NCBI GenBank assembly: GCA_000002445.1
Contig: CM000208.1
Span: forward strand, 224,001-288,000
From: Trypanosoma brucei
Lineage: Eukaryota
DNA length: 64,000 nt
Reading direction: 5' to 3'
Below, in pieces: positions 10,990 to 22,113 of the stretch (position 1 is its first letter; each line of letters opens with the position of its first letter). The notes under the pieces were generated by a model that saw nothing but the letters and a program-made list of their open reading frames with translations, made no database searches and was not told the DNA's origin. A program made the position numbers and the translations under genes.

Positions 10990-12357
10990 ATGCACGACGG
11001 AGATGGCAATATTGAACTCATCATTGGCCCCATGTTCGCTGGTAAAACAACAGAACTGATGAGACGTGTCCAGCGACACAAACACGCCCAAAGATCATGT
11101 TATATCATCAACTATTCACGAAACAGTTACCAAAATCAGCGACTGTCAACTCACGACCAGCTTTCACTGACTGCCAATGTGTCCATCGCAAAACTTAGTG
11201 AAGTGTGTGATGAATGGCGTGACTACGACGTCATTGCTGTTGACAATGGCCAATTCTTCCCTGATGTTGTGGGTTTCTGTGCACGCGCAGCCAATGAGGG
11301 GAAGACTGTCATTGTGTCAGCACTCGATGTAGACTGCCGAGAAACTCCTTTTGATGAGGTTTGCCGTCTTGTTCCCCGTGCAGAATCAGTGTTGAAACTC
11401 AGTGCCGTATGCATGGAATGTCATGAGCACGATGCTTTCTTAACGTATCGCACCATCGAGAGCAACGAGCGTGAACTATATGGTGGAGCCGACATGTACT
11501 TGGCTGTGTGCAGGTGGTGTTACAAACAACTTACCATGAGCCACGTTGATGCGCAGAAGACATCTGCTTCCACAGCTGCAGTTGTGCCAAATGGTGCACA
11601 CGGTCGCATTGAACTCATCATTGGCCCCATGTTCGCTGGTAAAACAACAGAACTGATGAGACGTGTCCAGCGACACAAGCACGCTCAAAGATCATGTTAT
11701 ATCATCAAGTACACTGGGGACACACGCTACAGTGAAGGTGCTATAACTTCTCACGACCAGCGTGCACTGACTGCCAATGTGTCGGTCTCTAATTTACATG
11801 ACGTGGGTGATGAGTGGCGTAAATACGATGTGATCGCGGTGGATGAGGGCCAATTTTTTCCTGGTGTGGCCGCGTTCTGTTCCAAGGCTGCCGATTCGGG
11901 GAAGGTTGTAATTGTGTCAGCACTTGATGCCGATTACCTACAAGAGCCATTTGAAGAAATTTGCCTTCTTGTTTCCCGTGCTGATTCTGTTGTGAAACTT
12001 AGTGCCGTGTGTATGGAGTGTCACAATCGCAAAGCATCTTTTACATATCGTACTGTGAAGAGTGATGAGCGCAAACTTGTCGGTGGCAGTGATATGTACA
12101 TGTCAGTTTGCAGATCATGTTACGAAACTAAAAGGAATATGGTGCAAACTGAAAAGTACATTTACAGTTGTGTTGGGATCAATGAAGGGAGTTACTCGGA
12201 ATGTTCCCCCGGGCCAAGCGAGCGCAGTTCAGCAGGAACCTCCGGCGTCCAAACTTCCGTCAAGGTGGATGAGCAGAACTGCACTGAACCGAACACAGAA
12301 GCTAAAAAAATGCCTCTGAAGAGAAAAAGAAATCAAATGGCCGTTGATACTACTTAG
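10990..12357 (+). CDS. TK: Thymidine kinase, tandem (pseudo-dimeric) form with two homologous TK domains
   Basis: The track start at 10984 is TTG; the ATG is at 10990. The P-loop 'IELIIGPMFAGKTTELMRR' occurs twice, at aa ~10 and ~210. Both halves carry the TK zinc-ribbon Cys motifs ('AVCMECH...VCRWCY' / 'AVCMECH...VCRSCY'). A tandem-domain TK is a described peculiarity of T. brucei (established knowledge). Confidence 0.9.
   Translation: MHDGDGNIELIIGPMFAGKTTELMRRVQRHKHAQRSCYIINYSRNSYQNQRLSTHDQLSLTANVSIAKLSEVCDEWRDYDVIAVDNGQFFPDVVGFCARAANEGKTVIVSALDVDCRETPFDEVCRLVPRAESVLKLSAVCMECHEHDAFLTYRTIESNERELYGGADMYLAVCRWCYKQLTMSHVDAQKTSASTAAVVPNGAHGRIELIIGPMFAGKTTELMRRVQRHKHAQRSCYIIKYTGDTRYSEGAITSHDQRALTANVSVSNLHDVGDEWRKYDVIAVDEGQFFPGVAAFCSKAADSGKVVIVSALDADYLQEPFEEICLLVSRADSVVKLSAVCMECHNRKASFTYRTVKSDERKLVGGSDMYMSVCRSCYETKRNMVQTEKYIYSCVGINEGSYSECSPGPSERSSAGTSGVQTSVKVDEQNCTEPNTEAKKMPLKRKRNQMAVDTT
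11011..11708 (+). repeat. Two 101-nt near-identical tracts (11011-11111 and 11608-11708) at the 5' ends of the two TK domains
   Basis: Identity is 99/101 nt ('attgaactcatcattggccccatgttcgctggtaaaacaacagaactgatgagacgtgtccagcgacacaa[a/g]cacgc[c/t]caaagatcatgttatatcatcaa'). The rest of the two domains is only ~75-80% identical at nucleotide level. Confidence 0.8.
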
Positions 12358-13443: not shown

Positions 13444-16400
13444 ATGTTGCACAAACCATGTGTACAGGTGGTTATGCGGTTCCGCCCAAACCCTGGGGTT
13501 GCTTCTCCTTTTTACTCCACAGATGACACGGGTGCACCATGGCTTACGTACGATGAGCGTACCGTTCGTGTCGTGGAACGCGATCCGCCGATGGACCGGA
13601 AACGCGTGGAACCCAATGGGGGCCCTTGCGGTGACAGCAATGACCCCCCAGTTTCAAAAGCGCTCGTTCCAGCGCCTGTAACGAGCTACACGTTTGATGC
13701 AGTGCTCTCCGATACATCAACCCAGCGCGACGTGCACAAATGTGTTGGGGAACCTGTGATCGGTAATGTGCTGAAGGGTTACAATGCTACAATATTTTCC
13801 TATGGGCAAACAGGGAGTGGGAAGACGTATACGATGTTGGGCCCCTACGGGGGGTTGGCTGATGCTTTCTTCGAAGATAGTCCGTTCTATGGCGAGCGAG
13901 GGCTCGTACCGCGAGTAGTGGAAGAGTTGTTTAATCGTTTGAATACCATGAAATCGGAGGAGTACACGTGGCGGGTCAAGACACAAATGTTTGAGATATA
14001 CAGGGAAAATATTGTCGACTTGCTTATCGAAGGAGACCAACAACCTCAGACAGAGTATCGCATAAGGGAAGGCAAAAACAGTCAAGGTAGTTTTTGTATG
14101 TACGTTGACTCTCTAAAGGAGGTTGAATGCCGTACCGCCGCTGATTTCATGGATATACTGCAGAGGGGTGTGGCGAGCAGGCACACACGTGAAACGGGAA
14201 CAAATGACCGCTCTAGTAGAAGTCATTGCCTGCTCTGCTTATTTGTGGAGCTGAAGCACAATGAAGATTACAGTATGTGGACAGAAAGCAGGCTTAACTT
14301 CGTCGATCTTGCAGGCAGTGAACGAGTTGCGACCTCTCAAGCGGAGGGAGAGACCTTAAAAGAAACTCAATACATTAATCTCTCTCTTTCACTTCTAGGA
14401 AATGTTATCCACCGCCTTGCCGGCGGTAACACTGGACACATTCCCTACCGCGATACGAAACTGACACGAGTGTTGAAGGATTCACTCGGTGGTAATTCAC
14501 TGACCACTCTGCTATGTCACGGCACAACCGAAGCTGCAACAAAGAGTCAAACAATTAATACACTTCGATTTGCTCAAAAGGCACTTCGAATAAAAACACG
14601 TGCTGTCGTCAACAAACCATCGAAAACAACGATCAAACAACAACAGCAGGAGTTCTACAAGGAACACACAAAACAGTTGGAAAAACAAATAAGAGTTTTG
14701 CAAGAAATTATTAGAAGCCGGGAAAACACGGAAGGTGAAAATTCTATGTGCGCAAAATGTGAGAGCATGAGTGCTACGATCGCGTCATTAACAAAAGAAA
14801 TTGAAAGACTTCAGAAAGAACTTATAGCAAGAGAAGAACAGCTACAGCAAACGCAGGAAACAGGAGACTACTACAAAAAGAACTGCGAAACCCTCGAAAA
14901 CGAACTAGCAAAACTGACAGAGGAGCAAGAAGCAAACGACGCAAGGCACATCGAAGCATACACAATTCTTGAAGAAGAAAGTGAGAACCTCAGGGCTGAA
15001 ATTGAAGCGCTACAAAAGCAATTAGCAGAGAAGCCACACAAGGACGCATCCAACTCCGAAGCTCTTTCCAACAAAAATAATACGCGGAAAAATAATTATA
15101 ATGATTATAAAAACCGCGCTACTATGACAGATCGTCGAACACACTCAAATTGTTGCACAATGACTGACCCTGTTACAATTGTTATGCCTGATGTCATGGA
15201 GGATATGCAACGCCGTCTAACAAAGGAACTTATCAACTGTGGTACGATGACAGATATCCGTTCACACTCAAATTGTTGCACAATGACTGACCCTGTTGCA
15301 ATTGTTATGCCTGATGTTATGGAGGATATGCAACGCCGTCTAACAAAGGAACTTATCAATTGTGGAACAATGACGGATATCCGTTCACACTCAAATTGTT
15401 GCACAATGACTGACCCTGTTGCAATTGTCATGCCTGATGTTATGGAGGATATGCAACGCCGTCTAACAAAGGAACTTATCAATTGTGGTACGATGACAGA
15501 TGGCACCATCTCCACTAACCGCGCTACTATGACAGATTGTCGAACACACTCAAATTGTTGCACAATGACTGACCCTGTTGCAATTGTCATGCCTGATGTT
15601 ATGGAGGATATGCAACGCCGTCTAACAAAGGAACTTATCAACTGTGGCACAATGACGGATATCCGTTCACACTCAAATTGTTGCACAATGACTGACCCTG
15701 TTGCAATTGTTATGCCTGATGTTATGGAGGATATGCAACGCCGTCTAACAAAGGAACTTATCAACTGTGGCACAATGACGGATATCCGTTCACACTCAAA
15801 TTGTTGCACAATGACTGACCCTGTTGCAATTGTCATGCCTGATGTTATGGAGGATATGCAACGCCGTCTAACAAAGGAACTTATCAACTGTGGTACGATG
15901 ACAGATGGCACCATCTCCACTAACCGCGCTACTATGACAGATCGTCGAACACACTCAAATTGTTGCACAATGACTGACCCTGTTGCAATTGTTATGCCTG
16001 ATGTTATGGAGGATATGCAACGCCGTCTAACAAAGGAACTTATCAACTGTGGCACAATGACGGATATCCGTTCACACTCAAATTGTTGCACAATGACTGA
16101 TCCTGTTGCAATTGTCATGCCTGATGTCATGGAGGATATGCAACGCCGTCTAACAAAGGAACTTATCAATTGTGGTACGATGACAGATGGCACCGTCTCC
16201 ACTAACTGCGCTACTATGACAGATCTTCGTTCACACTCAAATTGTTGCACAATGACTGACCCTGTTGCAATTGTCATGCCTGATGTCATGGAGGATATGC
16301 AACGCCGTCTAACAAAGGAACTTATCAACTGTGGCACAATGACAGATGGCACCATCTCCACTAACCGCGCTACTATGACAGATCTTCGTTCACACTCAAA

Positions 16401-19400
16401 TTGTTGCACAATGACTGACCCTGTTGCAATTGTCATGCCTGATGTTATGGAGGATATGCAACGCCGTCTAACAAAGGAACTTATCAATTGTGGTACGATG
16501 ACAGATGGCACCGTCTCCACTAACTGCGCTACTATGACAGATCTTCGTTCACACTCAAATTGTTGCACAATGACTGACCCTGTTGCAATTGTTATGCCTG
16601 ATGTTATGGAGGATATGCAACGCCGTCTAACAAAGGAACTTATCAATTGTGGCACAATGACAGATCTTCGTTCACACTCAAATTGTTGCACAATGACTGA
16701 CCCTGTTGCAATTGTTATGCCTGATGTTATGGAGGATATGCAACGCCGTCTAACAAAGGAACTTATCAATTGTGGTACGATGACAGATGGCACCGTCTCC
16801 ACTAACTGCGCTACGATGACGGATATCCGTTCACACTCAAATTGTTGCACAATGACTGACCCTGTTGCAATTGTCATGCCTGATGTTATGGAGGATATGC
16901 AACGCCGTCTAACAAAGGAACTTATCAATTGTGGTACGATGACAGATGGCACCGTCTCCACTAACTGCGCTACTATGACAGAGGTTTGCCGTCAATCTAA
17001 TTCGCTTGATCGGCGTGTGTCTTGTGTATCGGGTACCGCTGAAAATGTGTCGTTGAGTGGGGAAACGTTTTGTAGGAATACATCTGTGAATACCCGTGAG
17101 TGTTCATATATTGCACGAAACACCATATTTGCTTCGAGTGTTGTTTCTTCATTTGTCCCCGTAATTGGGGAAGGACAGTTTGAGTGGTGGTGTTTGGACG
17201 ATGTGTATGCTCATGCTCTTTTGTTTTCTTACTGCAATCCACGCGATGTGGGTATCAATATTGGCTTGTTCGATGACTGTGATGATAAGGTGCTTTTGCA
17301 ATCTCTTGGAGTTGTTCATAGAACACTTGGCTCCATTCGTGCTGATTATGATGGCAGCGTCGTCTCGGTTATTCGTAGGTTTTTGGTTCAGCAACGCGGT
17401 GCCCTTGCAGGAGACGGCGCTCTTGAAGGTTGTGTGCCGTGCGAGGCTCTATTCGAGGTTCTTATATCTGCCAAAAATGCACTCTTGGTGGAGCCAATGG
17501 TCAGCGACTCCTCTACTGTGAAGGGGGAAGATAGGGTTTGTCACGGTGATGGAGAAGGTGCACTTGACAGCTGCGTATATGCTCACTTGCAAGTGGCGAT
17601 GACCGCCGTCTTCAGCATTGCACGTGAGCGCGGTGGATATTTGTCGGATATTTTCGCATCTGTGAAGGTTCAGAAAGCACTCGAAGCAATGCGTCAGTTC
17701 TTCACTTCCAGCAATTTATTTTCGAGTGGAAGTAGCAGCGTTTCTAGTACCTCCGAGGCCAACGGAGATAGTAGCAGCTTCCTCGAAGACATGCTGAGGG
17801 AAACAGAGGTCCCGCGTTTTGTACTAGGAGGTGCATTGCAACGGGCAGCCGCGCTGCTCAAGGATGATGTGGTGACCAAATTGCAGAGGCGGAGATTGTG
17901 TGGCGGACTCTCGTTGGAGGAGGCCCTTCTTGCGTGTTATTTGGCTGAAGAAAGAATCACCGCCCTCACTGAAATCGAAAATTTGAGAGAAGAAATGGTA
18001 CAGCCTGTTACACGCGAAGCGCTGGATTTAATTGACGGTGCGGTGAGGGCTTTTCTCAAGAGTGAAGAGTCCGAGGATTTCTCCGCTGAAGCCACAAACC
18101 ACATGAAAAGCAGCTCCTTCACTACCGCACTGGCATTTCTCTTCACGTACGTCGCTGCTCAAACAGCGACTGAAACCGTCGGGCTTCCTCAAGATAGCAC
18201 AGAACATGTTAGAGATGCGCTAAATGTAGTTGCGCAGACACTACTAAGGCGTTCAGTGTCACAAACTTCAAGATTTGATGTAGCACAGAGTAATACAGCG
18301 ATAGACCCAGAAAGCATGCAACAATCGTTGAGGATTATAATGGATTATGCGGAAAGTCAAGGTTACTACCCAGTCACATGCGATACGTCAGAAGCAGGCA
18401 GCCGGTCCAATCATCACTGCCAGTACTCCCAGCAAACCCGTAGAAAGGACACGCCCGACATCGACGTCACGAAAAGGGAGGCACTTATGGAAAAAATGGA
18501 TTCGCCTCGTACCACTCCAAGAAGTTCACCGCACCCTCGGTTATCCTCGCCACAAGAGCAACGACCTCAAACGAGCGTGGTTGTAGTATCGCAACCAAAT
18601 GTAACAAGCCACCACATCAACAACCTCGTTCACAGAGGAAGGATGACTAACCCTGTTGCAATTGTTATGCCTGATGTCATGGAGGATATGCAACGCCGTC
18701 TAACAAAGGAACTTATCAATTGTGGTACGATGACAGATGGCACCATCTCCACTAACCGTGCTACTATGACAGATCTTCGTTCACACTCAAATTGTTGCAC
18801 AATGACTGACCCTGTTGCGATTGTTATGCCTGATGTCATGGAGGATATGCAACGCCGTCTAACAAAGGAACTTATCAATTGTGGAACAATGACGGATATC
18901 CGTTCACACTCAAATTGTTGCACAATGACTGACCCTGTTGCAATTGTCATGCCTGATGTTATGGAGGATATGCAACGCCGTCTAACAAAGGAACTTATCA
19001 ATTGTGGTACGATGACAGATGGCACCATCTCCACTAACCGTGCTACTATGACAGATCTTCGTTCACACTCAAATTGTTGCACAATGACTGACCCTGTTGC
19101 AATTGTTATGCCTGATGTTATGGAGGATATGCAACGCCGTCTAACAAAGGAACTTATCAATTGTGGAACAATGACGGATATCCGTTCACACTCAAATTGT
19201 TGCACAATGACTGACCCTGTTGCAATTGTTATGCCTGATGTCATGGAGGATATGCAACGCCGTCTAACAAAGGAACTTATCAATTGTGGAACAATGACGG
19301 ATATCCGTTCACACTCAAATTGTTGCACAATGACTGACCCTGTTGCAATTGTCATGCCTGATGTTATGGAGGATATGCAACGCCGTCTAACAAAGGAACT

Positions 19401-22113
19401 TATCAATTGTGGAACAATGACGGATATCCGTTCACACTCAAATTGTTGCACAATGACTGACCCTGTTGCAATTGTTATGCCTGATGTCATGGAGGATATG
19501 CAACGCCGTCTAACAAAGGAACTTATCAATTGTGGAACAATGACGGATATCCGTTCACACTCAAATTGTTGCACAATGACTGACCCTGTTGCAATTGTTA
19601 TGCCTGATGTCATGGAGGATATGCAACGCCGTCTAACAAAGGAACTTATCAATTGTGGAACAATGACGGATATCCGTTCACACTCAAATTGTTGCACAAT
19701 GACTGACCCTGTTGCAATTGTTATGCCTGATGTTATGGAGGATGTGCAACGGCGGCCATCAAACAGACTTGATGCTTCCACCTCATTAAAGGTGAGCAAA
19801 AACAATGGCGACGTGGCTGTGTACGAAGCTGTTCGCTTTGGTGACGAAAAAGTAGTGGTGGATAGTTGTTCTGTGGCGTCAGTGAGTGATAGTTTCCCGC
19901 GGGATTTGTCAAGTGAGGTGGGTAAACTTCAGTTAAGGGTACTAGATCTCGGGAAAGAGGTTTACATGCTTCAGAAAGAACTTATGGCAAGAGAAGAACA
20001 GCTACAGAAAACGCAGGAAAGGGCAGACTACTACAAAAAGAACTGCGAAACCCTCGAAAACGAACTAGCAAAACTGACAGAGGAGCAAGAAAGAAACGAC
20101 GCAAGGCGTACCGAAGCATACACCATTCTTGAAGAAGAAAGTGAGAACCTCAGGGCTGAAATTGAAGCGCTACAAAAGCAATTAGCAGAGAAGCCACACA
20201 AGGACGCATCCAACTCCGAAGCTCTTTCCAACAAAAATAATACGCGGAAAACGGATAGCGACCACGCTGTTGACGGGAAGGAAAATTTGGGTCTTCATCA
20301 TGTGTCCTCTGTGAGATCACTAGTTCACTTGAGGGAAAATAAAGCAAGGGAACATCTTCGAAGTCGTTCGTTGTCCAATGGCAGGGAGCCCCCTGGTGGT
20401 GTTCTACCTACCGAGCTGAGGACATGGCCGCAGACGGCGCAGCAAAGTGCCCCCGCTGCTTGCACCCATGAAAAAGGTGTGGAACGAAAACTTTCAGAGG
20501 AACTCGATGAGAGCGACGTCGTGAACCACCTCACCGCTCAGGCAACTCCTGAAATGCTGAATCTGAAACCCGAACTATTTGTAAAAAACCCTGCTTCGTT
20601 CGATCGTTTGGTGTCATATCTTACGCGACTCGTAGAAAGGGCTGAAAGGGAACCCGGAGCGCTGAGTTGTGAGGAAAGACACCTTTCTGAGGTATTGAAG
20701 GTGTTCTCCACTTTTTACTGTGGTTATCGTTCCATTGAAAGTGGTACCGGCACTTGTCCCATTGTTGATGGGAATCTGCGTTCACGCGGTGGGAGTTCAC
20801 ATTCACTGCGTCCTAGGGCAAAAGGAATGTGGTCTCCAGAATCCTTGCGGGTTTCCCCTGATGTTGGAAGGAACGTTGACGCTGTGAAGGAAGACCAAAA
20901 TGGTAAGCATCTCGGCCCAGTGCCTTCCGCAAGTACGACATTTCGAACCGGGCGTTCTGAGAGGTGTACTTCCTCCGTTCGTGGCGTGGCGTTGGTGGGT
21001 GGGCTTTTGGCGTCGAGGAGACGCTCGTCAACTGCTCCTTCACCGACAGAGGGGCCGCGGGTCCCTCTGCAGAGGGAAGAAATAGAAGACCTGGAGGGAA
21101 TGTCAGAGTTGGTGTCTTCCATCGAGGACATGCAGTCGCAGTTAGCCTACTTCAATTTTAGCAATGAGCCAGAGCTGAGGGAGTCCATCAAGCAACTGCA
21201 ACAGCACCTCGAGGAACTCAGAGCAGTCCTGGAGAGCCAAATGTCAACGACAAAAATGTCACGATCACCCTCCTATATATCTAGTTTCAGGGGAAGCTGC
21301 TTCTCACAGGGTAACCAACAGGGTCAAGGTGTGCAAGAGGGGAAGCCACCACTAAAAGCAGAAAGCAACGGATGTCAACCTGCGACCGACAGCGCGTGTG
21401 ATACAAATTATTCAAACGGTGGCCAGACAGGCTATTTAGCTGTATGTAATGCTGTAAACACTTGCTGTGGAGGGAGAGGTGCGTTCCATCGTGGTTCGAA
21501 TAGATGCTCCCACTGGGTACCACTGAGAATGCACAGGGCAAATCACGATGAGAACGTCGGGTTGGCGATGAATGAGCCTGGTGGCTCTATTCCTCAAGGA
21601 CGGTCAAATGCTTTTGACGACGGCTCGCAACGCAAGTGTATGGCGCCGAATCGACGCAACCAGAGTGCAGTGATGAGGCGGTTGCTGGACTCTATGCGAT
21701 TTGACCTTGACTCGTATGTGTACACGGCTGCCGAACAGAATGCCGCTAGCGCTGCTTTGCTAGAGGAATCGTCTTCTCTCAAGGAAAGAGAAGCAGATAT
21801 GTGGTTACGTCTCAACCAAACAGAGTTCTGCGAGATGGCAAGGATAGAAATGAGGCTGAAAAGGGATGACTTACGGGAGCTTCAGCATGAAATCCACCGC
21901 ATGCACTTGTTGCACGATAAAGAACTCGTAGAGCGGAAACGGAGGTTGTTGATTTATTCCTATAGAAAATTGCTGGATTTTGCAAAGCGAATGTCCGATA
22001 TTCTTAAGGCACGCGAGTTCTGTACGGGCACGCTGGAAAGCCAGCGGCTGCTGCTATTAGACGAAACGTCAGATTTCACAAAAGATGTAGAAAAGTACAT
22101 TGAGGTTCTGTAG
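13444..22113 (+). CDS. Kinesin-like protein with an N-terminal motor domain and a very long repeat-rich tail (2889 aa as assembled)
   Basis: ATG at 13444. The motor motifs are present: P-loop 'GQTGSGKTYTM', switch I 'SSRSHCLL', switch II 'DLAGSE', and the neck-proximal 'LRFAQKALRIKTRAVVNK'. A single uninterrupted ORF runs through two repeat arrays. Gene length and repeat copy number may be affected by assembly collapse. Confidence 0.75.
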   Translation: MLHKPCVQVVMRFRPNPGVASPFYSTDDTGAPWLTYDERTVRVVERDPPMDRKRVEPNGGPCGDSNDPPVSKALVPAPVTSYTFDAVLSDTSTQRDVHKCVGEPVIGNVLKGYNATIFSYGQTGSGKTYTMLGPYGGLADAFFEDSPFYGERGLVPRVVEELFNRLNTMKSEEYTWRVKTQMFEIYRENIVDLLIEGDQQPQTEYRIREGKNSQGSFCMYVDSLKEVECRTAADFMDILQRGVASRHTRETGTNDRSSRSHCLLCLFVELKHNEDYSMWTESRLNFVDLAGSERVATSQAEGETLKETQYINLSLSLLGNVIHRLAGGNTGHIPYRDTKLTRVLKDSLGGNSLTTLLCHGTTEAATKSQTINTLRFAQKALRIKTRAVVNKPSKTTIKQQQQEFYKEHTKQLEKQIRVLQEIIRSRENTEGENSMCAKCESMSATIASLTKEIERLQKELIAREEQLQQTQETGDYYKKNCETLENELAKLTEEQEANDARHIEAYTILEEESENLRAEIEALQKQLAEKPHKDASNSEALSNKNNTRKNNYNDYKNRATMTDRRTHSNCCTMTDPVTIVMPDVMEDMQRRLTKELINCGTMTDIRSHSNCCTMTDPVAIVMPDVMEDMQRRLTKELINCGTMTDIRSHSNCCTMTDPVAIVMPDVMEDMQRRLTKELINCGTMTDGTISTNRATMTDCRTHSNCCTMTDPVAIVMPDVMEDMQRRLTKELINCGTMTDIRSHSNCCTMTDPVAIVMPDVMEDMQRRLTKELINCGTMTDIRSHSNCCTMTDPVAIVMPDVMEDMQRRLTKELINCGTMTDGTISTNRATMTDRRTHSNCCTMTDPVAIVMPDVMEDMQRRLTKELINCGTMTDIRSHSNCCTMTDPVAIVMPDVMEDMQRRLTKELINCGTMTDGTVSTNCATMTDLRSHSNCCTMTDPVAIVMPDVMEDMQRRLTKELINCGTMTDGTISTNRATMTDLRSHSNCCTMTDPVAIVMPDVMEDMQRRLTKELINCGTMTDGTVSTNCATMTDLRSHSNCCTMTDPVAIVMPDVMEDMQRRLTKELINCGTMTDLRSHSNCCTMTDPVAIVMPDVMEDMQRRLTKELINCGTMTDGTVSTNCATMTDIRSHSNCCTMTDPVAIVMPDVMEDMQRRLTKELINCGTMTDGTVSTNCATMTEVCRQSNSLDRRVSCVSGTAENVSLSGETFCRNTSVNTRECSYIARNTIFASSVVSSFVPVIGEGQFEWWCLDDVYAHALLFSYCNPRDVGINIGLFDDCDDKVLLQSLGVVHRTLGSIRADYDGSVVSVIRRFLVQQRGALAGDGALEGCVPCEALFEVLISAKNALLVEPMVSDSSTVKGEDRVCHGDGEGALDSCVYAHLQVAMTAVFSIARERGGYLSDIFASVKVQKALEAMRQFFTSSNLFSSGSSSVSSTSEANGDSSSFLEDMLRETEVPRFVLGGALQRAAALLKDDVVTKLQRRRLCGGLSLEEALLACYLAEERITALTEIENLREEMVQPVTREALDLIDGAVRAFLKSEESEDFSAEATNHMKSSSFTTALAFLFTYVAAQTATETVGLPQDSTEHVRDALNVVAQTLLRRSVSQTSRFDVAQSNTAIDPESMQQSLRIIMDYAESQGYYPVTCDTSEAGSRSNHHCQYSQQTRRKDTPDIDVTKREALMEKMDSPRTTPRSSPHPRLSSPQEQRPQTSVVVVSQPNVTSHHINNLVHRGRMTNPVAIVMPDVMEDMQRRLTKELINCGTMTDGTISTNRATMTDLRSHSNCCTMTDPVAIVMPDVMEDMQRRLTKELINCGTMTDIRSHSNCCTMTDPVAIVMPDVMEDMQRRLTKELINCGTMTDGTISTNRATMTDLRSHSNCCTMTDPVAIVMPDVMEDMQRRLTKELINCGTMTDIRSHSNCCTMTDPVAIVMPDVMEDMQRRLTKELINCGTMTDIRSHSNCCTMTDPVAIVMPDVMEDMQRRLTKELINCGTMTDIRSHSNCCTMTDPVAIVMPDVMEDMQRRLTKELINCGTMTDIRSHSNCCTMTDPVAIVMPDVMEDMQRRLTKELINCGTMTDIRSHSNCCTMTDPVAIVMPDVMEDVQRRPSNRLDASTSLKVSKNNGDVAVYEAVRFGDEKVVVDSCSVASVSDSFPRDLSSEVGKLQLRVLDLGKEVYMLQKELMAREEQLQKTQERADYYKKNCETLENELAKLTEEQERNDARRTEAYTILEEESENLRAEIEALQKQLAEKPHKDASNSEALSNKNNTRKTDSDHAVDGKENLGLHHVSSVRSLVHLRENKAREHLRSRSLSNGREPPGGVLPTELRTWPQTAQQSAPAACTHEKGVERKLSEELDESDVVNHLTAQATPEMLNLKPELFVKNPASFDRLVSYLTRLVERAEREPGALSCEERHLSEVLKVFSTFYCGYRSIESGTGTCPIVDGNLRSRGGSSHSLRPRAKGMWSPESLRVSPDVGRNVDAVKEDQNGKHLGPVPSASTTFRTGRSERCTSSVRGVALVGGLLASRRRSSTAPSPTEGPRVPLQREEIEDLEGMSELVSSIEDMQSQLAYFNFSNEPELRESIKQLQQHLEELRAVLESQMSTTKMSRSPSYISSFRGSCFSQGNQQGQGVQEGKPPLKAESNGCQPATDSACDTNYSNGGQTGYLAVCNAVNTCCGGRGAFHRGSNRCSHWVPLRMHRANHDENVGLAMNEPGGSIPQGRSNAFDDGSQRKCMAPNRRNQSAVMRRLLDSMRFDLDSYVYTAAEQNAASAALLEESSSLKEREADMWLRLNQTEFCEMARIEMRLKRDDLRELQHEIHRMHLLHDKELVERKRRLLIYSYRKLLDFAKRMSDILKAREFCTGTLESQRLLLLDETSDFTKDVEKYIEVL
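14819..15091 (+). repeat. 283-nt coiled-coil block 'A' (copy 1), directly 5' of repeat array 1; ~96% identical to 19969-20251
   Basis: Encodes 'LQKELIAREEQLQQTQETGDYYKKNCETLENELAKLTEEQEANDARHIEAYTILEEESENLRAEIEALQKQLAEKPHKDASNSEALSNKNNTRK'. Confidence 0.85.
15131..16985 (+). repeat. Kinesin tail repeat array 1: ~13 tandem units of 123 nt (41 aa) or 159 nt (53 aa)
   Basis: The short unit is 'TMTD[I/L/R]RSHSNCCTMTDPVAIVMPDVMEDMQRRLTKELINCG'. The long variant adds 'TMTDGT[I/V]STN[R/C]A'. I counted 7 short and 6 long units from the translation. Synonymous variants (gttatg/gtcatg, caactgt/caattgt, ggtacg/ggcaca/ggaaca) distinguish the copies. Confidence 0.9.
18643..19752 (+). repeat. Kinesin tail repeat array 2: ~9.5 units of the same 123/159-nt repeat
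   Basis: Same unit as array 1: 2 long and ~7 short copies. It is separated from array 1 by ~1.66 kb of unique coding sequence (16986-18642). Confidence 0.9.
19969..20251 (+). repeat. 283-nt coiled-coil block 'A' (copy 2), located 3' of repeat array 2
   Basis: Encodes 'LQKELMAREEQLQKTQERADYYKKNCETLENELAKLTEEQERNDARRTEAYTILEEESENLRAEIEALQKQLAEKPHKDASNSEALSNKNNTRK'. It is in direct orientation relative to copy 1. Confidence 0.85.

What the first reader, a model, noticed from the sequence alone, without database searches (positions are those of the whole stretch)
11011..11708. Homogenised 101-nt tract at the 5' end of both thymidine-kinase domains, the footprint of intragenic gene conversion
The two TK halves are diverged paralogous domains overall (~75-80% nt identity, many aa differences). 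Their first ~34 codons, covering the P-loop GPMFAGKTTEL, are 99/101 nt identical, synonymous positions included. Purifying selection on the protein cannot explain identical synonymous sites. Recent conversion between the two halves of the same gene can. T. brucei TK is known to be a tandem pseudo-dimer, with one half reported to be catalytically impaired. Conversion restricted to the ATP-binding segment is a notable detail.
Basis: seen in the sequence. Interest (0 to 1): 0.5.

Follow-up and report, generated by a model that had tools for sequence, protein, structure and literature searches.

The report
Gene-conversion tract in trypanosome thymidine kinase
The two halves of the Trypanosoma brucei tandem thymidine kinase gene share a 101-base stretch that is almost identical because one half keeps being copied onto the other; this is real, but I recall it being noted when the enzyme was first characterised.

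Summary
The ORF 10990-12357 (+) is the 455-aa tandem thymidine kinase of T. brucei brucei TREU927 (100% identical to XP_822346.1). Positions 11011-11111 and 11608-11708 are 99/101 nt identical, with a 71-nt exact run. The rest of the two TK domains is 68% identical in DNA and 59% in protein, with pS 0.61. No shuffle out of 200,000 gives such a run. Synonymous sites in this segment are free to vary: against T. congolense the tract has pS 0.83. The RNA shows no unusual fold. Three other assemblies carry the tract, so it is not an artefact. Two of them (DAL972 and GCA_003543875.1) carry the same T>C change at the homologous positions 11103 and 11700. That is a concerted change within the species, with a chance probability of about 0.008. 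Intragenic gene conversion is therefore well supported and seems to be recurrent and short-tract. The tract runs from the start of inter-domain homology to the most diverged block, which has a codon indel and holds the DTRY active-site motif that domain 1 has lost. The tandem structure and the inactive domain 1 are published. From memory, the 2012 JBC paper also reported a nearly identical 89-bp stretch and suggested genetic exchange. I file it as already known, with low to moderate interest.

The parts
10990..12357 (+). Coding sequence of the tandem thymidine kinase (455 aa plus stop), equivalent to T. brucei brucei TREU927 XP_822346.1
   Evidence: ORF listing and translation. 100% identity over 100% of the length to the TREU927 protein, which lies on a 4.05-Mb contig.
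11005..11523 (+). TK domain 1 (PF00265, full length), reported in the literature to be catalytically inactive
   Evidence: Pfam TK match, E = 3e-52, profile positions 1-176 of 176. Asn replaces the conserved Glu of the DEGQFF motif, and the DTRY motif is lost. The literature reports the N-terminal domain as inactive.
11602..12123 (+). TK domain 2 (PF00265, full length), the active domain, with a solved structure
   Evidence: Pfam TK match, E = 1.9e-59. Residues 203-384 correspond to PDB 5FUV/5FUW/5FUX/5FUY.
11011..11111 (+). Homogenised tract, copy 1. It encodes IELIIGPMFAGKTTELMRRVQRHKHAQRSCYII plus the first two bases of the next codon, and includes the P-loop.
   Evidence: 99/101 nt identical to 11608-11708, with a 71-nt exact run at 11011-11081. 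pS is 0.09 in the tract against 0.61 elsewhere.
11608..11708 (+). Homogenised tract, copy 2
   Evidence: Same as for copy 1.
11112..11150 (+). The most diverged block, immediately 3' of the tract in domain 1 (partner about 11709-11753 in domain 2). It contains a one-codon indel. RNS-Y at 11119-11130 replaces the DTRY motif found at 11719-11730.
   Evidence: Codon alignment. Sliding windows show 49-51% nt identity and pN 0.45-0.49. DxRY is conserved in the other kinetoplastid TKs.
11245..11247 (+). AAT (Asn) in domain 1, where domain 2 (11845-11847, GAG) and other TKs have the conserved Glu of DEGQFF
   Evidence: Codon and protein alignments.
11103..11103 (+). Strain-polymorphic synonymous site (TAT/TAC), offset 92 in copy 1. 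It changes together with 11700.
   Evidence: TREU927 and T. equiperdum OVI have T at both 11103 and 11700. DAL972 and GCA_003543875.1 have C at both. The chance that two of six SNPs fall at partner positions is about 0.008.
11700..11700 (+). Partner of 11103 in copy 2 (offset 92)
11088..11088 (+). One of the two intra-tract mismatches in this strain (copy 1 C, copy 2 T). It is absent in DAL972 and GCA_003543875.1, where copy 1 is also T.
11150..11183 (+). Possible second, weaker or older homogenised patch (partner 11750-11783), 32/34 nt identical
   Evidence: Longest run with 2 mismatches or fewer outside the main tract. Codon-shuffle p is 0.02 for that criterion and 0.08-0.29 for the others, so it is not significant after multiple testing.

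Best explanation
The 101-nt near-identity is a tract of non-reciprocal homologous recombination (gene conversion) between the two TK domains of a single gene, and it has happened repeatedly. The sequence shows that the two domains are old paralogues. Outside the tract they are as different from each other as from the T. cruzi or T. congolense TK. Their first 33 codons, in contrast, have been overwritten by one another recently enough that synonymous sites still match. My inference on mechanism is as follows. A break or a replication lesion in one P-loop segment is repaired using the other segment, 597 nt away on the same or the sister chromatid. The heteroduplex or synthesis tract is short. 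It cannot spread 5' because inter-domain homology starts at 11011/11608. It cannot spread 3' because it meets a block with about 50% identity and a codon indel. Copying the degenerate RNS-Y motif of domain 1 into domain 2 across that block would presumably inactivate the enzyme and be removed by selection. The process reinforces itself, because each conversion restores the perfect homology that the next one needs. The strain comparison indicates at least one further short conversion within T. brucei. If the 11082 mismatch is older than that event, the converted stretch covers 16-29 nt, spanning offsets 77-92 and bounded by the retained mismatch at offset 71 and the N/K difference at offset 101. 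The most parsimonious history is a T>C mutation at 11700 followed by conversion of copy 1 from copy 2. One consequence is that the catalytically dead domain 1 keeps an intact, T. brucei-specific P-loop segment identical to that of the active domain.
For: - Step change in divergence: the tract has pS 0.09 and pN 0, and the rest has pS 0.61 and pN 0.23.
- No shuffle out of 200,000 reproduces the run.
- Codon identity at conserved residues is 29/31 in the tract and 42/80 elsewhere, p = 1.9e-5. Other conserved motifs such as YDVIAVD share only 1/7 codons.
- There is no intrinsic synonymous constraint. T. brucei against T. congolense in the same segment gives pS 0.83, with 7/22 same codons and pN 0.19.
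- Both T. brucei domains share the lineage-specific residues VQRHKHAQ, where other species have RRELFAR or NRNYLAS.
- The RNA fold has z = -0.25.
- The tract is present in DAL972, GCA_003543875.1 and T. equiperdum OVI.
- The paired SNP at 11103/11700 and the loss of the 11088 mismatch occur in the same two assemblies. The chance of two SNPs at partner positions is 0.008, and the chance of 3 of 6 SNPs falling in 15% of the gene is 0.045.
- T. brucei homologous recombination works down to about 50 bp, is impeded by mismatches and uses short-patch repair (PMC1904282).
- Templated RAD51/BRCA2-dependent conversions in T. brucei have a median insert of 29 bp and leave the donor intact (PMC13233330).
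Against: - No conversion event has been observed directly.
- The direction of transfer cannot be determined, because no outgroup has unconverted copies.
- The within-species argument rests on only two haplotype classes in four assemblies. One of these is a reference-guided assembly, and the polishing history of another is unknown.
- A 16-29 nt tract is at the short end of what homologous recombination normally produces.
- The role of selection in fixing the 3' boundary is inferred, not tested.
Confidence: 0.88

Rival explanations
1. A single past event explains the tract. This could be one conversion, or a partial re-duplication or unequal exchange that replaced the 5' end of one domain. The copies have simply been decaying since then, and the paired SNP is a parallel mutation.
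For: Two mismatches (11082, 11088) have accumulated in the tract. The 11082 mismatch is shared by all four assemblies, so the tract is not being erased continuously. T. congolense has three- and four-domain versions, which shows that the locus undergoes unequal exchange.
Against: The same T>C change is at homologous positions in both copies in two assemblies, with chance about 0.008 before even requiring the same base change. The 11088 mismatch is absent in the same haplotype, so one short conversion explains all three tract SNPs. Unequal crossing-over changes the number of domains and does not homogenise a 101-nt patch while leaving both flanks diverged.
Confidence: 0.08
2. Selection on the nucleotide sequence itself keeps both copies identical without any exchange. 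The constraint could be an RNA structure, a binding site for a regulator, or extreme codon preference.
For: Both tracts lie at the start of a domain, and each is in the same mRNA.
Against: Synonymous sites of this segment are saturated between T. brucei and T. congolense (pS 0.83). There is no excess folding energy (z = -0.25). Synonymous polymorphisms exist within the tract among strains. Elsewhere in the gene, conserved residues share codons only 52% of the time.
Confidence: 0.02
3. The tract is an assembly or consensus artefact: repeat collapse or read mis-assignment copied one domain's sequence onto the other.
For: Short repeated segments can be cross-polished. The T. congolense IL3000 TK is clearly mis-assembled into single-domain contigs.
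Against: Four assemblies show the tract with the same boundaries: TREU927, DAL972, GCA_003543875.1 and T. equiperdum OVI. The tract is only 101 nt, shorter than Sanger reads, and has unique flanks on both sides. The two mismatches are preserved in a copy-specific way.
Confidence: 0.01

Closest known systems
T. brucei tandem thymidine kinase (Tb927.10.880), described by Ranjbarian et al., J Biol Chem 2012;287:17628 (PMC3366807)
   Same: It is the same gene. It has two TK1-type domains, it is described as a monomeric pseudodimer, and only the C-terminal domain is active. From my memory of the abstract, which the tools could not verify, that paper already notes 'nearly identical 89-bp sequences present in both domains' and proposes exchange of genetic material between them.
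   Different: I measure 101 nt with 2 mismatches (71 nt exact) in TREU927, not 89 bp. The strain comparison showing a concerted SNP, the cross-species control at synonymous sites and the explanation of the boundaries were worked out here. As far as I know they are not in that paper, which I could not read.
Concerted evolution by gene conversion between tandem paralogues or internal repeats, for example mosaic VSG formation and the BRCA2 BRC repeats in T. brucei
   Same: Both involve short, templated, homology-bounded, non-reciprocal transfer between diverged copies. The tract lengths of tens of bases match those measured for VSG mosaics, which have a median of 29 bp. Recombination depends on local identity.
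   Different: Here the donor and the acceptor are two domains of one housekeeping enzyme gene, and the result is homogenisation, not diversification. Dependence on RAD51 or BRCA2 is assumed and was not tested for this locus.
Multi-domain TK of T. congolense (three domains in P0002; four according to the review PMC10208901)
   Same: It is a tandem array of TK1 domains in a related African trypanosome. Some of its domains have also lost the catalytic Glu (DGGQFF).
   Different: In T. congolense the domains are 82-90% identical in protein outside the tract segment. The two IL3000 contig versions look roughly 90% identical in DNA by eye over their whole length. This points to recent duplication or whole-domain homogenisation, not a single 101-nt patch in otherwise old paralogues.

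Membership tests
TK1-family tandem thymidine kinase of T. brucei | Two complete PF00265 thymidine-kinase domains in one ORF | tested here: met
   Pfam TK matches with E = 3e-52 and 1.9e-59, each covering profile positions 1-176 of 176.
TK1-family tandem thymidine kinase of T. brucei | Sequence identity to the annotated T. brucei TK and to the crystallised domain 2 | tested here: met
   100% identity to XP_822346.1. Residues 203-384 match PDB 5FUV and 5FUY at E about 1e-119.
TK1-family tandem thymidine kinase of T. brucei | Domain 1 lacks conserved active-site residues, and domain 2 keeps them | tested here: met
   DNGQFF in domain 1 against DEGQFF in domain 2, and RNS-Y against DTRY, in alignment with 11 other kinetoplastid TK domains. 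The inactivity itself is taken from the literature and was not tested here.
Gene-conversion tract (concerted evolution between paralogous segments) | An abrupt, statistically significant drop in divergence compared with the flanking paralogous sequence | tested here: met
   97-98% identity in the tract against 68% outside it. No shuffle out of 200,000 reaches the observed run.
Gene-conversion tract (concerted evolution between paralogous segments) | Synonymous sites are homogenised, and this cannot be attributed to a constraint on those sites | tested here: met
   pS is 0.09 in the tract and 0.61 elsewhere. The cross-species pS in the tract is 0.83. The RNA fold has z = -0.25.
Gene-conversion tract (concerted evolution between paralogous segments) | The paralogues share lineage-specific or strain-specific changes (concerted substitutions) | tested here: met
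   The VQRHKHAQ residues, specific to T. brucei, are in both domains. The paired T/C polymorphism at 11103 and 11700 separates strains, with chance about 0.008.
Gene-conversion tract (concerted evolution between paralogous segments) | Reproducible in independent assemblies | tested here: met
   DAL972, GCA_003543875.1 and T. equiperdum OVI all carry it.
Gene-conversion tract (concerted evolution between paralogous segments) | Non-reciprocal transfer with the donor left unchanged, and dependence on the homologous-recombination machinery | not testable with these tools
   This needs experimental lineages or RAD51/BRCA2 mutants. I infer it only by analogy with VSG mosaics.

The most novel reading that the evidence does not exclude
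Conversion between the two TK domains is still going on within present-day T. brucei populations, as very short patches of about 16-29 nt. The intact P-loop of the catalytically dead domain 1 would then be maintained mainly by this copying from the active domain, and not by selection on domain 1 itself. This would be a natural, countable case of short-patch templated repair at a housekeeping locus. It would use the same kind of event that builds mosaic VSGs, and it could be measured from population sequence data.
Probability: 0.45. Interest if true: 0.35.

Novelty: already known. Interest (0 to 1): 0.25.

Why it matters
The case shows cleanly how intragenic conversion can keep part of a degenerate pseudo-enzyme domain identical to its active partner while the rest drifts. 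It also shows how local homology and a diverged, indel-bearing block set the limits of a tract. There are practical consequences. The duplicated 101 nt affects primer, guide-RNA and RNAi design and read mapping for an essential drug-target gene. Residues in this segment of domain 1 should not be read as independently selected. The concerted SNP among strains suggests that the locus could serve as a small natural reporter of short-tract recombination in T. brucei. None of this changes current understanding of the enzyme or of trypanosome recombination.

Tried and rejected
- I tried to read the primary paper (Ranjbarian 2012) by DOI, PMC id and PubMed id. It is not held.
- Full-text searches for '89-bp', 'nearly identical' and related phrases found no paper repeating the statement. 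Valente 2016 is also not held. The claim of prior publication therefore rests on my memory of the abstract.
- I tested the RNA-structure explanation and rejected it.
- I tested the codon-bias or synonymous-constraint explanation with a cross-species comparison and rejected it.
- I looked for further copies of the tract in the window and found none.
- I looked for additional conversion tracts in the rest of the domains. Only one weak candidate appeared, at 11150-11183, and it is not significant after multiple testing.
- I tried to use T. congolense to date the event or polarise the SNPs. The IL3000 contigs are collapsed single-domain versions, and one carries an apparent frameshift (inferred from the upstream in-frame translation). 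Synonymous sites are also saturated, so T. congolense cannot serve as an outgroup.
- The SNP at 11864 (Gly/Asp) makes domain 2 match domain 1 in DAL972. I considered it as another conversion and rejected that, because the flanking differences 4-5 nt away are retained and Asp is the consensus residue in other species.

Full report
**What is there**

The finding lies inside one ORF, 10990-12357 on the + strand. Its 455-aa product is 100% identical to the annotated thymidine kinase of Trypanosoma brucei brucei TREU927 (XP_822346.1), which lies on a 4.05-Mb contig. Each half is a complete Pfam PF00265 TK domain, with E = 3e-52 and 1.9e-59. Residues 203-384 are the crystallised TbTK domain, PDB 5FUV/5FUW/5FUX/5FUY.

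**Check of the observation**

- The repeat finder reports a 104-nt direct repeat at 11011-11114 and 11608-11711, 97% identical, and separately a 300-nt repeat at 11150-11449 and 11750-12049, only 73% identical.
- A protein-guided codon alignment shows 99/101 identical bases between 11011-11111 and 11608-11708. The mismatches are at 11082 (A/G) and 11088 (C/T), and both are synonymous.
- The first 71 nt are exact and occur nowhere else in the window.
- The three bases upstream (AAT against CGC) differ, and so does the base after the tract (11112).
- The next 15-codon windows fall to 49-51% identity and include a one-codon indel.
- Outside the tract the aligned core is 68.4% identical, with pS 0.61 (dS about 1.25) and pN 0.23. 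Inside it, pS is 0.09 and pN is 0.

**Is it more than chance or protein-level selection?**

- No site shuffle or codon shuffle out of 200,000 each reached the observed runs.
- Among degenerate codons with a conserved amino acid, 29/31 are identical codons in the tract against 42/80 elsewhere (Fisher p = 1.9e-5).
- Other strongly conserved motifs do not share codons. YDVIAVD shares 1 of 7, and KLSAVCMECH shares 4 of 9 degenerate codons.
- The decisive control is the same segment compared between species. T. brucei against T. congolense (locus L004) gives pS 0.83, with only 7 of 22 conserved residues on the same codon and pN 0.19. So neither the synonymous sites nor the second half of the peptide are intrinsically constrained.
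- The two T. brucei domains share lineage-specific residues (VQRHKHAQ), where T. cruzi has RRELFAR and T. congolense has NRNYLAS.
- The RNA of the tract folds no better than shuffles do (z = -0.25).

**Age of the paralogues**

Outside the tract, domain 1 and domain 2 are 59% identical in protein. That is the same as either domain against the T. cruzi TK (58-60%) or the T. congolense domains (55-60%). The domains are therefore old or fast-evolving paralogues, and the tract is a recent overlay on them.

**Independent assemblies and a concerted polymorphism**

I fetched the gene from T. b. gambiense DAL972 (L002), a second T. brucei-group assembly GCA_003543875.1 (L001) and T. equiperdum OVI (L003). 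All three have the tract with the same boundaries, which excludes an assembly artefact.

- OVI differs from the window only at 11416.
- DAL972 and L001 are identical to each other and differ from the window at six sites: 11088 C>T, 11103 T>C, 11416 G>A, 11700 T>C, 11864 G>A and 12087 C>T.
- Sites 11103 and 11700 are the same position (offset 92) in the two copies, and they carry the same change.
- The probability that any two of six random SNPs fall on partner positions is 0.008, before even requiring the same base change.
- Three of the six SNPs lie in the 15% of the gene occupied by the tracts (p = 0.045).
- The change at 11088 removes one of the two intra-tract mismatches.
- The most parsimonious history is one mutation (11700 T>C) followed by one conversion of copy 1 from copy 2. 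That conversion would span at least offsets 77-92. It would be bounded by the mismatch at offset 71, which all four assemblies retain, and by the N/K difference at offset 101. Its length would be 16-29 nt. This step is inference, and the polarity is uncertain because T. congolense is saturated at synonymous sites.

**Why the tract sits where it does**

The 5' edge is where homology between the domains begins: the N-terminus MHDGDGN against the linker PNGAHGR. The 3' edge abuts the most diverged block of the domain. That block contains the indel and the DTRY motif, which is conserved as DxRY in other kinetoplastid TKs but reads RNS-Y in domain 1. Domain 1 also has Asn in place of the Glu of DEGQFF, at 11245-11247. 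This fits the literature statement that only the C-terminal domain is active.

T. brucei homologous recombination falls off steeply below about 50 bp. It is impeded by mismatches and shows short-patch repair (PMC1904282). Break-induced templated conversions in VSG genes depend on RAD51 and BRCA2, have a median insert of 29 bp, need less than 50 bp of flanking homology and leave the donor intact (PMC13233330).

My reading is that the P-loop segment is the only stretch with enough uninterrupted identity to keep recombining. Each event renews that identity. Selection would also remove any tract that carried the defective motif of domain 1 into domain 2. The restriction to the ATP-binding segment therefore follows from homology and selection, and says nothing special about ATP binding.

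**Rivals**

- A single old event followed by decay and a parallel mutation is possible but disfavoured by the paired SNP.
- Nucleotide-level selection is rejected by the cross-species control, the within-tract polymorphism and the fold test.
- An assembly artefact is rejected by four concordant assemblies.
- Unequal crossing-over would change the number of domains and would not homogenise a 101-nt patch.

**Comparison with what is known**

The tandem TK, its pseudodimer nature and the inactive N-terminal domain are published (Ranjbarian et al. 2012, as cited). I could not open that paper, and no paper in the library repeats the relevant sentence. From memory, its abstract ends by saying that nearly identical 89-bp sequences present in both domains suggest that exchange of genetic material between them can further promote evolution. 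If that recollection is right, both the observation and the interpretation are already in the literature. Three things were added here: the statistics, the cross-species control and the strain-level concerted SNP that implies recent short-tract conversion.

**Verdict**

Interest is low to moderate.

Noticed in passing
window 13444-22113 (+), repeat arrays at about 15112-16982 and 18643-19751: The downstream 2889-aa kinesin ORF contains two large arrays of 123-nt and 159-nt units (41 and 53 aa, with the motif TMTDPVAIVMPDVMEDMQRRLTKELINCG) that are 91-98% identical at those periods. The orthologue called in DAL972 is only 1966 aa. The difference could be a difference in repeat copy number or a collapse of the repeats in one assembly.
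   Followed up: partly
L004:3282-4100 and L005:245-1015 (T. congolense IL3000 contigs); protein P0002: In this IL3000 assembly the T. congolense TK appears as two single-domain genes on 5-6 kb contigs. They look roughly 90% identical in DNA (judged by eye) along their whole length, and one appears frameshifted at its 5' end. An older 637-aa protein record shows three tandem domains, and a review says there are four. The locus looks collapsed or mis-assembled. Some T. congolense domains have also lost the catalytic Glu (DGGQFF).
   Followed up: partly
window 11150-11183 and 11750-11783: There is a second short patch of high identity between the domains (32/34 nt, encoding HDQ..LTANVS). It could be an older or shorter conversion tract, but it is only marginal by permutation (p = 0.02-0.29 depending on the criterion).
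   Followed up: yes
window 11416 and 11864: There are non-synonymous differences between strains. GAA (Glu) in TREU927 is AAA (Lys) in the three other assemblies, within the CMEC cysteine motif of domain 1. GGT (Gly) in TREU927 and OVI is GAT (Asp, the consensus in other species) in DAL972 and GCA_003543875.1, within the FFPG/D motif of the active domain 2.
   Followed up: no
protein hits P0003-P0006, P0012, P0025, P0038 and others: Many TK proteins of 340-470 aa from metagenomes and from parabasalids (Tritrichomonas, Histomonas, Trichomonas) cover 66-82% of the tandem query. Tandem TK1 architectures therefore appear widespread outside trypanosomes. I did not check whether their domains show similar homogenised patches.
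   Followed up: no
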